64,000 nt of DNA from Bdellovibrionales bacterium (GTDB taxonomy: Bacteria > Bdellovibrionota > Bdellovibrionia > Bdellovibrionales > UBA1609): positions 3,433-67,432 of the forward strand of contig JBFWVI010000001.1 in assembly GCA_050246815.1 (NCBI GenBank). Reading direction: 5' to 3'. Positions 60,211 to 63,402 of the stretch are shown here, piece after piece. Numbering within the stretch: the first letter of the stretch is position 1; every line of letters begins with the position of its first letter. The notes beneath the pieces were generated by a model that had not been told where the DNA came from, made no database searches, and saw only the letters and a list, made by a program, of their open reading frames with translations. Position numbers and translations under genes: made by a program.

Positions 60211-60942
60211 CTAAAGAGGGAAGATGTTCTTGATCAATTCACTTTGGTGTCGAAAAAGTTCACGGCAGCCGACATCCGCAAGCTCGGTCATGGCGTTCAT
60301 TTGCTCGCGCGAGAAGGCTTCGCCTTCGGCGGTGCCTTGGATCTCGACAAAATCGCCCCGACTGGTCATGACAAAGTTCATGTCTGTGCTGCAGGCAAAA
60401 TCTTCATCATAGCAAAGATCCAAAATAGGTTTTGGGCCTTGCATGCCGACACTGATTGCCGCGACATAGTGTTTCAAGGGAAGAGTTTTGATGTCGCCAC
60501 GGTCTTTCATGAATTTGAGTGCAAAGGCCAATGCCACAAAACCGCCGGTGACTGCCGCCGTGCGGGTGCCGCCGTCGGCTTGCAAGACATCACAATCGAT
60601 CATCACTTGGCGTTCACCTAGGGCCTTTAAATCCACAGCAGCGCGAAGACTGCGACCGATCAAACGAGAGATCTCTTGGGTGCGGCCCGAGTTGGCGGCC
60701 TTTTCACGCTGCATGCGGGTGTGGGTCGAGCGTGGCAACATGCCGTATTCGGCCGTCACCCAGCCTTGCCCTGTGCCCTGCAGCCATTTGGGAGCTGTAT
60801 TTTCAACTGTGGCCGTACAAAAGACTCGAGTGTGGCCAAAACGAACTTCCACGCTGCCTTCGGCATAGCGGGCCACTTCGGGGATCAATTCCACAGTTCT
60901 TAACTGATTGTCTTTTCTTCCGTCTGCGCGCATGGCGGTCAC
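60211..60942 (-). CDS. rph: Ribonuclease PH
   Basis: [32 protein letters not shown]. Confidence 0.97.
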
Positions 60943-61703
60943 TGTAGGCGGGGTGCCTGGGGTTTGTCCAATGATTCGTGATAACGGATCAGGCCTTCAT
61001 GAAGACTTTGCGCCACCAGTTGTTGATATTCGGCGGTGACCAATCTCAGACGCTCTTCAGGGTGTGATAAATAGCCAATTTCGATCAAAGCCGAAGGGAT
61101 GGTCAAATTACTGATCACAAAAAAAGGAGCTTGGCGAATCGATTTGGATTTGGCCTTATGGCCACCGCGCCAAGCCAGCTCCAAGGATTTGGCAAGTCTG
61201 CTGCTGGCATAAACCCTTTGGTTGCGGGCTAAGTCACGAATGATCAATTGCACTTCCGATGGCACGGCTGTTTCCGCTTCAAGCAGACCCCTTGCGTGGC
61301 CCTCATTTTCACGGGCGGCCAAATACATGGACTCTTCATCTGGGGGCAATTGGTTTTGAAAATAGATTTCAACGCCACGGGCTTTGGGGTCCGTGGACCA
61401 ATTGGCGTGAATACTCAGCAGCAAATCACCCTTGGCCTGTTCGGCCCGACGGACCCGCTCGCCAAGGTCTAAAAATTCATCGTTTCGGCGGGTCATATAG
61501 GCAACGAAGCGGCCGTCTTCTTTCAACCGCTCATACAGCATTTCGGTGACCGACAAAGTGATATGGGATTCTTTGCTGTCCGCCGCATGAGCACCTTCGT
61601 CTTTGCCGCCATGGCCCGGATCCAAAATGACTTTCAAAGGGGCGGCGCCGCTTTCGATTGCGAAAAGCATGAAAATGGTAATCGGTAAAACCTTTGCATT
61701 CAT
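60939..61703 (-). CDS. N-acetylmuramoyl-L-alanine amidase (Amidase_3)
   Basis: [24 protein letters not shown]; signal peptide from ATG 61703. Confidence 0.9.
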
Positions 61704-61796
61704 TCTGTCTAGAATACCGTGAGGCGCGGTGTTCACGGCAGACCAGGGACTTTGAATCTCGGCAAACGGCTTGGGCTTTTCGGTGGTCAAAAGGCG

Positions 61797-61851
61797 AAAA
61801 AAAAGCGACCTGGGGGTAAGGAGGGGACCAGGTCGCCAAGGGGGGGATACC
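61797..61851 (-). ncRNA. Candidate ~55-nt small RNA with a C-rich 5' tail and an anti-SD loop in its terminator hairpin
   Basis: Minus strand GTATCCCCCCCTTG-GCGACCTGG-TCCCCTCCTTACCC-CCAGGTCGC-TTTTTTTT, directly after a sigma54 promoter; 5' end inferred. Confidence 0.6.
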
Positions 61852-61861
61852 CTTAGTACTA

Positions 61862-61877
61862 AGCAAGTGAGGTGCCA
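61862..61877 (-). promoter_or_regulatory. Consensus sigma54 -24/-12 promoter
   Basis: TGGCAC-CTCAC-TTGCT. Confidence 0.75.
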
Positions 61878-62114
61878 GCGATCGGTCACCCCAGAGCTCA
61901 TATATTAATTTTAGGGCATTCAGAAGTGCGTCTTATGGTAAGGATTACGCAATTCTGGGAGCGTACCAATCAACTCTGGTCAATTTAAGACGCATTGCAA
62001 TATTACAAGTTATCGGAATTACTAGCTTTTTAAATGTTCATCATTTGCAGTGCCATTTTCGGGCAGGGTGACGAAATTTTTCAAAGCAAAAGATCTACTT
62101 AACGCGATGCATGG

Positions 62115-62184: not shown

Positions 62185-63402
62185 ATGAACAAACTAAATT
62201 GGGTGATTGTCTTACTGTTGATAAGCCCCCTGGCTTTTGGCCAGAGCCGCTACCATGACCTACTTGTTGCAGATCTTGAAGACGTCGAAACCGACATGGA
62301 AGATGCGATGTCGGATTCTGAGGCTGCACGCGAAGGTGCAAAGGCAGCAAAAAAACGGGCAGAACAAGAACGCCGCAATCGTGAAAAAGCCAAGGCCGAG
62401 GCCAAGGACGCCTCGAGCAAAGCCCGCGTCAAAGAACGTGAAGCCAAACTGGAAATTAGCAGTGCCGAACGTGAAATCGAACGCGATCGCGCCGAAACCA
62501 ACCGCTTGGTGGGCGAAAAAACCGCCTTTGAAAATCAAATCCTCAAATTGGACAAACAGATCGCGGATTACAAAGCCAAGGTTGAAAAACAAAAAATGGA
62601 TCGCGAAGCCGCGCAAAAAGTGCGTGATGAAAAACGCGACCACGCTGCTGAGCTGATCAAACAAGCGCAACTGCTTGAGGAAGAAGTGCGTAAAAATAAA
62701 GATGAAGAACGCGCCGCTATTCAAGAGTTGGAAGCCGCCAAGAAAGAACAAAAACAGGCCGCCGAACGTTTGAAGCAGGCTCAAGACGACAACCAAAAAA
62801 CCGTGCGCAAGATGCAAGAGAAAGTGGATCACCTGAAAAATGAGGCCAACAAAGCCAAAGAGGCTGCGGCCCAATCTGAAACTCAGATGCGCGGTTTACG
62901 TCAAAATATGAGTAAACTTGAAAGCGAAACCCAATTGGCCGAGGTGGACGCGGAGCAGGCCAAGCGTCGCTCGGAAGAAGCCGGAGTGCGTTTGACTGAG
63001 CTCAAAAACAAAAACAAAACCAAAGCGGCCCAATTGCAATCGCGCAAAGCAAACGCTCAAGCGGTCATGGTGACTGCCGAAGATCGAGAAGCGTCGAAAA
63101 AGGTCGATTTGGCGGAGAGTCAGCAGGAAAACGACAATCTTGAAGCCGCCAGTGACAGCGGCAAAGTGAAAGTGCAACTGCAGCGTAAAGAGCCCAATGT
63201 CACACGCAAGCTTTCTGTGAACTGCTCGTTGTTAGATAAGCCAAGTCTGAGCGCCAAAGTCATCGGTACACGCCGTAAGGGGATGCAGCTTAGCACCGAG
63301 TCGGTGAATAAAAGCTGGGCTCGGGTCCAATCCGATAACAGCCAGCGTCCTGGCTATATGCCCATGTCTTGTTTCGAGGGCCGGACGCCCTCGATGCAGT
63401 GA
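62185..63402 (+). CDS. Exported long coiled-coil protein with a C-terminal SH3-like domain
   Basis: GGGAG RBS, signal peptide, about 300 aa E/K/A/Q-rich heptads; PS.SAKVIG...W.RV...GY is SH3b-like. Confidence 0.7.
   Translation: MNKLNWVIVLLLISPLAFGQSRYHDLLVADLEDVETDMEDAMSDSEAAREGAKAAKKRAEQERRNREKAKAEAKDASSKARVKEREAKLEISSAEREIERDRAETNRLVGEKTAFENQILKLDKQIADYKAKVEKQKMDREAAQKVRDEKRDHAAELIKQAQLLEEEVRKNKDEERAAIQELEAAKKEQKQAAERLKQAQDDNQKTVRKMQEKVDHLKNEANKAKEAAAQSETQMRGLRQNMSKLESETQLAEVDAEQAKRRSEEAGVRLTELKNKNKTKAAQLQSRKANAQAVMVTAEDREASKKVDLAESQQENDNLEAASDSGKVKVQLQRKEPNVTRKLSVNCSLLDKPSLSAKVIGTRRKGMQLSTESVNKSWARVQSDNSQRPGYMPMSCFEGRTPSMQ

What the first reader, a model, noticed from the sequence alone, without database searches (positions are those of the whole stretch)
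61797..61994. Sigma54-driven tiny RNA displaying an anti-Shine-Dalgarno loop
Seen on the minus strand: a perfect TGGCAC-N5-TTGCT promoter (61877-61862), then within ~55 nt a C7 tract, a 9-bp stem GCGACCTGG/CCAGGTCGC, a 14-nt loop UCCCCUCCUUACCC and U8, with no ORF inside. The loop contains CCUCCUUA, identical to the typical 16S rRNA 3' end and complementary to UAAGGAGG. A TGCGTCTTA/TAAGACGCA inverted pair (61927-61994) lies at activator distance. The downstream amidase gene has its own -10 element. Inference: a stand-alone regulatory sRNA that could block G-rich RBSs (GGAGGA, AGGGG, GGGAG are used in this window) while sparing leaderless mRNAs, i.e. a possible life-cycle translational switch.
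Basis: partly seen in the sequence, partly recalled or inferred. Interest (0 to 1): 0.85.

Follow-up and report, generated by a model that had tools for sequence, protein, structure and literature searches.

The report
Sigma-54 C-rich small RNA of Bdellovibrionales
This is a tiny non-coding RNA gene with its own sigma-54 promoter and terminator, kept in most predatory Bdellovibrio-type bacteria, whose exposed runs of cytosine most likely cover guanine-rich ribosome-binding sites on messenger RNAs.

Summary
On the minus strand there is an exact TGGCAC-N5-TTGCT (61877-61862), a C7 tract, a 9-bp hairpin with a 14-nt C-rich loop, and U8 (61797). It lies in a divergent intergenic region.

It is a conserved gene. 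A covariance model finds one copy in 117 of 151 genomes of the window's order. Outside the order, only 2 of 127 genomes of the phylum give a match, both marginal. All 9 stem pairs covary. GG-N8-TTGC sits at fixed spacing in 60 of 64 diverse members.

What is conserved is C-runs, not the anti-SD octamer (CCUCCUUA in 7 of 64).

It is not the amidase leader. The amidase mRNA looks leaderless with its own -10 (45 of 53 loci). In genus Bdellovibrio the RNA module is inverted.

The genome has rpoN and 13 activators. No Hfq was found. Dozens of genes have poly-G Shine-Dalgarno sites.

Best reading (0.55): an Hfq-independent, sigma-54-gated base-pairing sRNA, working like sX13 or 6C.

No Rfam family matches, and no paper found describes it. 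Expression is not shown. The proposed enhancer repeat is not conserved.

Earlier notes of this scan describe analogous sigma-54 C-rich sRNAs on other DNA, but no sequence look-alike.

The parts
61862..61877 (-). Sigma-54-type promoter, TGGCAC-N5-TTGCT (-24/-12 elements)
   Evidence: Exact match. GG-N8-TTGC at the same spacing in 99 of 103 pattern-found loci (denominator) and in 60 of 64 model-found members. rpoN and 13 strong activator genes are in the genome.
61797..61852 (-). Predicted ~55-nt small RNA. The 5' end is inferred from the usual sigma-54 spacing (about 12 nt after the -12 GC); the 3' end is the U-tract.
   Evidence: The fold shows one hairpin, an unpaired 5' C-tract and a C-rich loop. 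Covariance model hit of 72.2 bits. The transcript itself is not shown.
61840..61846 (-). 5' single-stranded C7 tract (candidate seed 1)
   Evidence: A C-run of 4 or more is present in 62 of 64 members. It is unpaired in the centroid fold.
61828..61836 (-). 5' arm of the terminator hairpin, GCGACCUGG
   Evidence: 99.6% of cells paired; all 9 of 9 pairs have changes on both sides.
61814..61827 (-). 14-nt C-rich loop UCCCCUCCUUACCC (candidate seed 2)
   Evidence: Across 64 members the loops are 61% C and 2.9% G, 5-22 nt long, and carry C4 or longer in 62 of 64.
61805..61813 (-). 3' arm of the terminator hairpin, CCAGGUCGC
61797..61804 (-). U8 tract of the intrinsic terminator
   Evidence: A T-run is present in all aligned members.
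61701..61716 (-). The amidase gene's own -10-like TATTCT, a 7-nt gap, then ATG, with no SD: a leaderless layout. This is a neighbour, not part of the RNA.
   Evidence: TANNNT ending 5-9 nt before the ATG in 45 of 53 loci; SD-like motif in 2 of 53; control inside the gene 2 of 53.
60939..61703 (-). N-acetylmuramoyl-L-alanine amidase gene (Amidase_3), followed by rph and a Ham1/rdgB-type gene
   Evidence: Pfam E = 9.1e-41. It is linked to the RNA in 74 of 103 loci.
62185..63402 (+). Divergent gene for a signal-peptide, long coiled-coil K/E/A-rich protein with no Pfam family. It is the other conserved neighbour.
61927..61994 (-). Inverted pair TGCGTCTTA...TAAGACGCA, proposed as an activator site. 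It is present but not conserved.
   Evidence: One search finds it. One search shows no conservation upstream of the -24 element in two same-genus genomes and one same-family genome.

Best explanation
This is a stand-alone gene for a ~50-60-nt regulatory RNA, found across the order Bdellovibrionales.

Proposed mechanism:
1. RNA polymerase with sigma-54, switched on by an as yet unidentified enhancer-binding ATPase, starts about 12 nt after the -12 element.
2. It terminates at the hairpin and U-tract.
3. The product displays two unpaired C-runs: a 5' tract, and the unusually long loop of its own terminator hairpin.
4. These most likely pair with G-rich Shine-Dalgarno regions (GGGGGG or GGAGG types). 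Several G-C pairs in a row allow this without Hfq.
5. Pairing would block ribosome binding on a subset of mRNAs. Leaderless mRNAs, such as that of the neighbouring amidase, cannot be touched in this way.

Shown here by comparison: the promoter, hairpin and C-runs are conserved as one unit, and the unit is independent of the flanking genes.

Inferred: transcription, sigma-54 dependence, pairing and the targets.
For: Conservation limited to the unit:
- In 19 of 40 relatives, BLAST matches cover only window 61789-61879 of a 491-nt query.
- Flanks are unalignable even within the genus.

Distribution:
- An exact pattern finds 103 loci, one per genome. 99 carry Bdellovibrio-type names and 4 carry broader labels.
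- Covariance model R1 hits 117 of 151 genomes of the order, across all 13 families sampled.
- In the phylum sample there are 24 hits in 151 genomes. Only 2 of 127 genomes outside the order match, at E of about 0.007, and both lack the promoter.

Promoter: GG[CT]A[CT]-N5-TTGC in 83 of 103 loci; GG-N8-TTGC in 60 of 64.

Hairpin: 99.6% of cells paired, 9 of 9 pairs changed on both sides, 0 of 500 shuffles as good; slid controls give 15-50% paired.

C-runs: C4 or longer in the loop in 62 of 64 and in the 5' tract in 62 of 64. Loops are 5-22 nt, far longer than a terminator needs, and their lengths are not multiples of three.

Independence from neighbours:
- The amidase lies downstream and co-directional in 61 of 103 loci, and upstream and divergent in 13 of 103.
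- A convergent downstream gene follows in 4 of 71 loci.
- The amidase layout is leaderless in 44 of 53 loci.

Cellular setting:
- One rpoN and 13 strong activator genes.
- No Hfq found at 99.1% completeness.
- G-runs of 6 or more are followed by a start codon and an ORF twice as often as C-runs: 107 of 638 against 53 of 638. There are 65 plausible run-start combinations.
- G5 lies in the SD window of 112 of 2718 ORFs.

Precedent (abstracts read): sX13 and 6C act through C-rich loops on G-rich sites without chaperones.
Against: - No discrete transcript is shown. The only RNA-library data were assembled contigs, which cannot show ends or levels.
- No conserved enhancer site was found upstream in the window's clade.
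- Target prediction gave a mixed list with no theme and no cross-species test. Any C-rich RNA scores well against SD sequences, so these energies do not discriminate.
- In 66 of 71 loci a co-directional gene follows closely. A cis role cannot be fully excluded.
- One contig of a run only guessed to be RNA reads through the terminator in a Bdellovibrio relative.
- The stem sequence is more conserved than pairing alone requires, which could point to a protein partner.
- Related genomes are not independent samples.
Confidence: 0.55

Rival explanations
1. A cis-acting element. Either it is a sigma-54-driven leader whose terminator attenuates the gene downstream (amidase-rph-rdgB here, the coiled-coil protein gene in Bdellovibrio), or its transcription and termination interfere with the promoter that abuts it.
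For: - A co-directional gene follows in 66 of 71 loci.
- In several loci only 17-26 nt separate the U-tract from the amidase ATG, so the amidase promoter must overlap the terminator.
- One contig (X14, RNA only by guess) runs from near the predicted start through the terminator into the coiled-coil gene.
Against: - The amidase has its own -10 and no SD in 44 of 53 loci, so a read-through transcript would carry an untranslatable 5' extension.
- The downstream gene differs between clades, because the module is inverted.
- In 4 of 71 loci the next gene is convergent.
- The distance from terminator to ATG varies from 17 to 504 nt.
- No sequence in the ~15-nt 5' part can pair with the 5' stem arm to form an antiterminator.
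- A 9-bp G+C-rich stem with U8 is a strong terminator.
Confidence: 0.12
2. A protein-binding or decoy RNA. The C-runs and the strongly conserved stem would be the binding site of an RNA-binding protein, or would soak up a G-rich RNA, rather than acting on many mRNAs.
For: - The stem sequence GCGRCCWGG is nearly invariant in most genera, although pairing alone would allow drift.
- Two C-rich sites on one tiny RNA resemble multi-site decoys.
- No Hfq was found, so another partner is conceivable.
Against: - No candidate protein is linked to the locus; the neighbours are an amidase and a secreted coiled-coil protein.
- There are no GGA motifs of the CsrA-binding kind in the loop. CsrA is present in the genome.
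- In more distant members the stem does change by compensation.
Confidence: 0.12
3. Not a gene: a chance promoter-like match beside a terminator-like hairpin, or a DNA-level element such as C/G-run secondary structure.
For: - A single TGGCA[CT]-N5-TTGC[AT] match is expected by chance several times per genome.
- No expression is shown.
Against: - The promoter, spacing, C-tract, hairpin and U-tract are kept together in 117 of 151 genomes of the order, while the flanks diverge completely.
- The covariation follows RNA pairing rules, including G-U pairs. DNA structure would not favour these.
Confidence: 0.03

Closest known systems
sX13 sRNA of Xanthomonas (Schmidtke et al. 2013, PMC3771888; abstract read)
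   Same: A small RNA whose unpaired C-rich loops repress mRNAs carrying G-rich motifs at the ribosome-binding site. Hfq is dispensable. G-rich motifs sit at the RBS of about 5% of genes there; here G5 lies in the SD window of 112 of 2718 rough ORFs.
   Different: sX13 has three stem-loops; this RNA has a single hairpin plus a 5' tract. The promoter here is of the sigma-54 type. No Rfam family, sX13's if there is one, reached threshold. The phylum is different. Nothing has been tested experimentally for this RNA.
6C sRNA of Actinobacteria (Mai et al. 2019, PMC6486639; abstract read)
   Same: C-rich loops bind several mRNAs through runs of G-C pairs, independently of RNA chaperones.
   Different: A longer RNA with several loops, from high-GC Gram-positives. 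No Rfam match here. It is not sigma-54 driven, as far as I recall.
Qrr1-5 of Vibrio, and from recall Pxr of Myxococcus, CrcZ and GlmY: sigma-54-dependent sRNAs (Qrr seen only in search listings)
   Same: A stand-alone sRNA gene behind a -24/-12 promoter that needs an enhancer-binding ATPase, so the RNA reports one signalling pathway.
   Different: Those RNAs are about 100 nt or longer, mostly depend on Hfq or sequester a protein, and have defined activators and enhancer sites. Here no Rfam match was found, no activator is known, and no enhancer is conserved in the window's clade.
Burkholderia ncS54 (RF02871), the best Rfam score
   Same: A terminator-like hairpin with a U-tail aligns.
   Different: 21 bits against a gathering score of 43, E = 0.045. 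The match is essentially the terminator stem. It is not a member.
Reported B. bacteriovorus sRNAs: APsRNA1-7 and merRNA (Karunker et al. 2013, PMC3627812) and the hit-locus sRNA (Capeness et al. 2013, PMC3818213); passages read
   Same: Intergenic non-coding RNAs of the same group of organisms.
   Different: Those are 98-655 nt, were chosen for attack-phase excess, and three have FliA promoters. None is described with a sigma-54 promoter or C-runs. No c-di-GMP riboswitch lies within 1.5 kb of the element in two Bdellovibrio loci, so it is not merRNA. I could not map their HD100 coordinates onto my loci, and I did not read their supplements.

Membership tests
Sigma-54-dependent promoter | GG at -24 and GC at -12 with fixed spacing (TGGCAC-N5-TTGCW) | tested here: met
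   Exact in the window. GG[CT]A[CT]-N5-TTGC in 83 of 103 loci. GG-N8-TTGC in 60 of 64.
Sigma-54-dependent promoter | The organism encodes RpoN and enhancer-binding AAA+ activators | tested here: met
   One Sigma54_DBD gene. 13 strong Sigma54_activat genes. rpoN found in 149 of 151 genomes of the order.
Sigma-54-dependent promoter | Upstream enhancer (activator binding sites) | tested here: inconclusive
TGTC-N9-GACA occurs in 17 of 99 loci, mostly genus Bdellovibrio, but not in the window or two same-genus genomes, even allowing 1 mismatch.
Sigma-54-dependent promoter | Transcription abolished without RpoN or its activator | not testable with these tools
   Needs a mutant or an in-vitro transcription assay.
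Intrinsic (Rho-independent) terminator | G+C-rich stem directly followed by a U-tract | tested here: met
   9-bp stem plus U8, with covariation. The simple scan missed it because its loop limit is 8 nt.
Trans-acting C-rich / anti-SD base-pairing sRNAs (functional class of sX13, 6C, RsaE/RoxS) | Unpaired C-rich motifs conserved | tested here: met
Trans-acting C-rich / anti-SD base-pairing sRNAs (functional class of sX13, 6C, RsaE/RoxS) | A discrete, abundant small transcript | tested here: inconclusive
   Only assembled contigs were available. They show no ends or levels.
Trans-acting C-rich / anti-SD base-pairing sRNAs (functional class of sX13, 6C, RsaE/RoxS) | G-rich target sites at ribosome-binding sites that confer regulation | tested here: inconclusive
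   G-run SD sites exist and candidates can be listed. Regulation is untested.
Trans-acting C-rich / anti-SD base-pairing sRNAs (functional class of sX13, 6C, RsaE/RoxS) | Sequence or structure homology to a catalogued family | tested here: not met
   No Rfam 15 family reaches its threshold on the window or on 8 homologous loci. It may work like these RNAs, but it is not a member of any of those families.
Transcription attenuator / 5' leader | Alternative antiterminator pairing, and a downstream gene that depends on read-through | tested here: not met
   No competing structure. The amidase has its own -10 and is leaderless. The module is inverted or followed by a convergent gene in some genomes.

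The most novel reading that the evidence does not exclude
The RNA is a sigma-54-gated mimic of the ribosome's anti-Shine-Dalgarno sequence. When induced at one stage of the predatory life cycle, it would mask the strongest G-rich ribosome-binding sites across the transcriptome. Translation would shift towards leaderless and weak-SD mRNAs. This would be an order-wide translational switch carried out by a 55-nt RNA without any chaperone.
Probability: 0.12. Interest if true: 0.8.

Novelty: new member of a known kind. Interest (0 to 1): 0.6.

Why it matters
Bdellovibrio is the model predatory bacterium and a candidate living antibiotic, yet almost nothing is known about its RNA regulators or its sigma-54 regulon.

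This element is among the most conserved non-coding features of the order. It is present in cultured B. bacteriovorus strains, and it is tiny enough to have escaped standard RNA-seq.

It gives a direct handle on two open questions. The first is what sigma-54 senses in these predators. The second is how an organism without a detectable Hfq uses RNA pairing.

It also adds a third phylum-level case, after sX13 and 6C, in which C-run RNAs and G-run ribosome-binding sites appear to have arisen as a regulatory pair.

Tried and rejected
- Rfam search of the window region and of 8 homologous loci: nothing reached threshold.
- Paralogues in the window's own genome: none by BLAST or by the covariance model at E up to 10.
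- Sequencing runs. Only Logan contigs were served for a B. bacteriovorus locus (L042:1200-1900).
  - Two runs of different studies (X2, X4) have a contig ending at the last base of the T9 tract (1499/1500). Both contigs reach about 100 nt upstream of the predicted start.
  - X1 runs through the whole region.
  - X14 runs from about 5 nt inside the predicted start through the terminator.
  - Taken together this is at most a weak hint of a 3' end, and no evidence of a discrete RNA.
- Enhancer search:
  - k-mer counts were mostly A/T-rich words; my first attempt used a wrong spacing in the regular expression and found nothing.
  - TGTC-N9-GACA appears only in a subset of loci and is absent here.
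- Co-occurrence with rpoN has no discriminating power, because rpoN is in 149 of 151 genomes.
- Target prediction by duplex energy with Pfam annotation of the top 20. Named families among these were DnaG, a HAMP-repeat hybrid kinase, MltA, DUF2203, Dus, a LuxR-type regulator, a PilT-like ATPase, FliI, ChaN and a PilZ protein; 9 of the 20 had no Pfam family. There is no common theme and no conservation test, so this is not used as evidence.
- A coding reading was rejected: there is no ATG, and loop lengths of 5-22 nt vary out of frame.
- A G-quadruplex or i-motif DNA reading was considered and set aside because of the G-U-tolerant covariation.
- Literature: five searches of the held library found no description of this RNA. 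Subscription journals and supplements were not searched.

Full report
**1. The observation**

- TGGCAC-CTCAC-TTGCT at 61877-61862. It is the only match in the window, with 0 mismatches.
- A C7 tract at 61846-61840.
- A perfect 9-bp inverted repeat, GCGACCTGG/CCAGGTCGC, at 61836-61828 and 61813-61805.
- A 14-nt loop, UCCCCUCCUUACCC.
- U8 at 61804-61797.

With the usual sigma-54 spacing, the transcript would start near 61851 and be about 55 nt long. It folds into one hairpin with a free 5' C-tract, at -20.4 kcal/mol. None of 200 shuffles folds as well.

The simple terminator scan missed it only because that scan allows loops of at most 8 nt.

One promoter match is not significant by itself. The looser TGGCA[CT]-N5-TTGC[AT] occurs 14 times in the genome, where I calculate about 6.5 by chance.

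**2. Setting**

The element lies in a ~480-nt divergent intergenic region.
- To its left, on the same strand as the RNA, are an Amidase_3 gene, RNase PH and a Ham1/RdgB-type gene.
- To its right, on the other strand, is a gene for a signal-peptide protein made almost wholly of K/E/A-rich coiled coil, with no Pfam family.
- No upstream gene runs into the hairpin, so it is not another gene's terminator.

**3. Conservation**

- A 491-nt query covering the whole intergenic region matched 19 of 40 relatives. The matches covered only query positions 312-402, which is window 61879-61789: from the -24 element to just past the U-tract.
- Aligned with two same-genus genomes and one same-family genome, identity is nil upstream of the -24 element and nearly complete from there to the U-tract.
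- An exact IUPAC pattern for C-tract, stem, loop gap, stem and T-run found 103 loci in one-genome-per-species contigs, always one per genome.
- Of these, 99 are named Bdellovibrio, Bdellovibrionales, (Pseudo)bdellovibrionaceae, Bdellovibrionia or Bdellovibrionota. Four carry only broader labels: Proteobacteria three times and Oligoflexia once.
- They include cultured B. bacteriovorus strains Bd5, Bd16, s4 and kdesi, and several Bdellovibrio sp. HCB isolates.

**4. Unbiased distribution**

That pattern forces stem identity. I therefore built covariance model R1 from the 104-sequence alignment.
- In a sample of the order (genomes at least 90% complete), 117 of 151 genomes have a hit, across all 13 families.
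- The misses include several 1.2-1.6-Mb genomes.
- A few genomes have two hits: G036, G030, G152, G186 and G037.
- In a sample of the phylum, 24 of 151 genomes have hits. All strong ones are in the window's order.
- Only 2 of 127 genomes outside the order match, at E of about 0.007. Their alignments lack the promoter.
- The window's own genome has one copy, even at E up to 10.

**5. Structure and what is conserved**

On 64 diverse model hits (alignment A3):
- The 9-bp stem is paired in 99.6% of cells.
- All 9 pairs show changes on both sides (39 cells).
- No shuffle of 500 reaches the observed values.
- Sliding the partner by 1-3 columns drops pairing to 15-50%. The alignment is fitted to the model, which favours the structure, but the slid controls and the many U-A to A-U and A-U to G-C switches are clear.

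Beyond the stem:
- GG-N8-TTGC is present in 60 of 64; the strict GGCA[CT]-N5-TTGC in 39 of 64.
- A 5' C-run of at least 4 is present in 62 of 64.
- A loop run of C4 or longer is present in 62 of 64, and C5 or longer in 56 of 64.
- Loops are 61% C and 2.9% G, and 5-22 nt long.

Genus Bdellovibrio has loops such as ACCCCUCCCCCCCAAAU.

This genome's 16S rRNA ends ...CACCUCCUUU, so the loop shares seven letters with it. The conserved property is exposed C-runs, not a copy of the rRNA end.

**6. Not a leader of the amidase operon**

Three results argue against the attenuator reading.

(a) Synteny with changed orientation.
- The amidase lies downstream and co-directional in 61 of 103 loci. It lies upstream and divergent in 13 of 103, all in genus Bdellovibrio.
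- There the RNA points at the coiled-coil protein gene instead.
- The conserved pair is amidase and coiled-coil gene, with the promoter-RNA-terminator module between them in either orientation.
- Of the other 29 loci, 23 are only about 650 nt long or shorter, so they are uninformative.
- In 4 of 71 loci with enough flank, the next gene is convergent.

(b) The amidase has its own start signals.
- TANNNT ends 5-9 nt before the ATG in 45 of 53 loci, and 44 of those 45 have no SD.
- An SD-like motif is present in 2 of 53.
- The same test 60 nt inside the gene gives 2 of 53.
- In the window this is TATTCT, 7 nt, then ATG.
- Such an mRNA is leaderless. A read-through transcript from the sigma-54 promoter would bury its start codon.

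(c) No antiterminator is possible.
- The ~15-nt 5' part cannot pair with the 5' stem arm.
- The gap between U-tract and ATG ranges from 17 to 504 nt.

Against this stands the fact that a co-directional gene follows in 66 of 71 loci. I therefore keep a cis role at about 0.12.

**7. Cellular context for a pairing mechanism**

- The genome has one rpoN and 13 strong sigma-54 activator genes. rpoN is found in 149 of 151 genomes of the order.
- Lambert et al. 2012 note bd0843 as the RpoN-like factor of strain HD100 (PMC3464611, passage read).
- No Hfq gene was found at 99.1% completeness; CsrA is present.
- G-runs of six or more are followed within 3-12 nt by a start codon opening an ORF of at least 80 aa in 107 of 638 cases. 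For C-runs the figure is 53 of 638.
- 65 run-start combinations have a short upstream open frame and look like real G6-G11 Shine-Dalgarno sites. Some runs are counted with two or three alternative starts.
- In a rough census using the first ATG of 2718 ORFs of at least 150 aa:
  - 1097 have an SD-like motif (control inside genes: 242).
  - 211 look leaderless (control: 75).
  - 112 have G5 in the SD window.
- A C7 tract would bind a G6-7 site more tightly than the ribosome's CCUCC can.

This is the logic shown experimentally for sX13 of Xanthomonas. There, C-rich loops act on G-rich motifs at about 5% of ribosome-binding sites, and Hfq is dispensable (PMC3771888, abstract). The same logic holds for 6C of mycobacteria (PMC6486639, abstract).

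**8. What stays open**

- Expression is not shown. For a B. bacteriovorus locus only assembled contigs of metatranscriptome-labelled runs were available. Their ends are at best a weak hint of a 3' end at the U-tract, and one contig reads through it.
- The activator is unknown.
  - A different candidate site, TGTC-N9-GACA, occurs in 17 of 99 loci. In every hit the spacer is exactly 9 nt, although 8-12 nt were allowed. In Bdellovibrio it sits at -69 with GACAATTGTC at -85.
  - It is absent from the window and its genus.
- Duplex-energy ranking of ribosome-binding regions gave a mixed list with no theme. I give it no weight.

**9. Comparison with what is known, and novelty**

- No Rfam 15 family reaches threshold on the window or on eight homologues. 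The best score is Burkholderia ncS54, at 21 bits against a gathering score of 43, and it is essentially a terminator match.
- The published Bdellovibrio sRNAs are 98-655 nt. They were chosen for attack-phase excess or for lying in the hit locus. None is described with these features (PMC3627812 and PMC3818213, passages read).
- Five full-text searches found no description. This covers only the held open-access library, and supplements were not read.
- Earlier notes of this scan report a sigma-54 RNA with C-rich loops in Gemmataceae, and a different sigma-54 sRNA in an uncultured Bdellovibrionota lineage. A sequence look-up found no look-alike of this element.

I file it as a new family of a known kind. 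It works like the C-rich, chaperone-independent anti-SD sRNAs, and like Qrr-type RNAs in its promoter. It is a member of none of their families.

**10. Verdict**

- Real conserved sigma-54-type small-RNA gene: about 0.85-0.9.
- Acts in trans by C-run to G-run pairing at ribosome-binding sites: 0.55.
- Cis role: 0.12.
- Protein-binding or decoy RNA: 0.12.
- Artefact: 0.03.
- The bold reading, a global switch from SD-led to leaderless translation, is not excluded: 0.12.
- Interest: 0.6.

Noticed in passing
window 61701-61716 (minus), and 53 related loci: The amidase gene downstream of the RNA appears to be translated from a leaderless mRNA. A TANNNT -10 ends 5-9 nt before the ATG in 45 of 53 loci, and an SD-like motif occurs in only 2 of 53. 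In several genomes only 17-26 nt separate the RNA's U-tract from this ATG, so the amidase promoter overlaps the terminator.
   Followed up: partly
whole genome G000 (e.g. C18:24385, C44, C59:7966, C65, C83:7616): A class of genes uses pure G-runs (G6-G11) as the Shine-Dalgarno sequence, 3-9 nt before the ATG. There are 65 plausible run-start combinations. G-runs of 6 or more precede a start codon and ORF twice as often as C-runs.
   Followed up: partly
window 62185-63402 (+); L042 1459-236 (minus): The conserved neighbour is a ~400-aa secreted protein made of K/E/A-rich coiled coil with a short C-terminal globular part and no Pfam family. It keeps its place opposite the amidase gene from the window's clade to B. 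bacteriovorus, although its sequence is barely alignable.
   Followed up: partly
L042 1633-1649 and 1656-1665 (minus strand), and 16 other loci: The palindromic motifs TGTC-N9-GACA (about -69 from the -24 GG) and GACAATTGTC (-85) lie upstream of the RNA promoter in genus Bdellovibrio. TGTC-N9-GACA also occurs at other distances in seven other loci. The spacer is always 9 nt, although 8-12 nt were allowed. It is a candidate activator site.
   Followed up: partly
L187 (G036:C11), L156 (G030:C35), L155 (G152:C14), L154 (G078:C22): Some genomes carry a second copy or a look-alike. G036 has two good copies. L156 has a perfect sigma-54 promoter, a C-tract and a longer body. L155 and L154 (the latter outside the order) are C-rich terminator hairpins without a sigma-54 promoter.
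   Followed up: no
10 nt after the U-tract in 102 loci (window 61787-61796): The bases just after the terminator are moderately conserved, as R-C-C-Y-A-A-A-A-T. CC is at positions 2-3 in about two thirds of loci, and 35 of 102 match a loose pattern. This holds whichever gene follows. The window itself has CGCCTTTTGA. Unexplained.
   Followed up: partly
G000:C1 about 68157-68172, minus strand (about 740 nt beyond the window's end): A second exact sigma-54-type promoter match, followed about 45 nt later by a G-rich SD and an ATG. Most of the 14 genome-wide matches have this promoter-UTR-SD-ORF layout, often with G-rich SD sequences.
   Followed up: no
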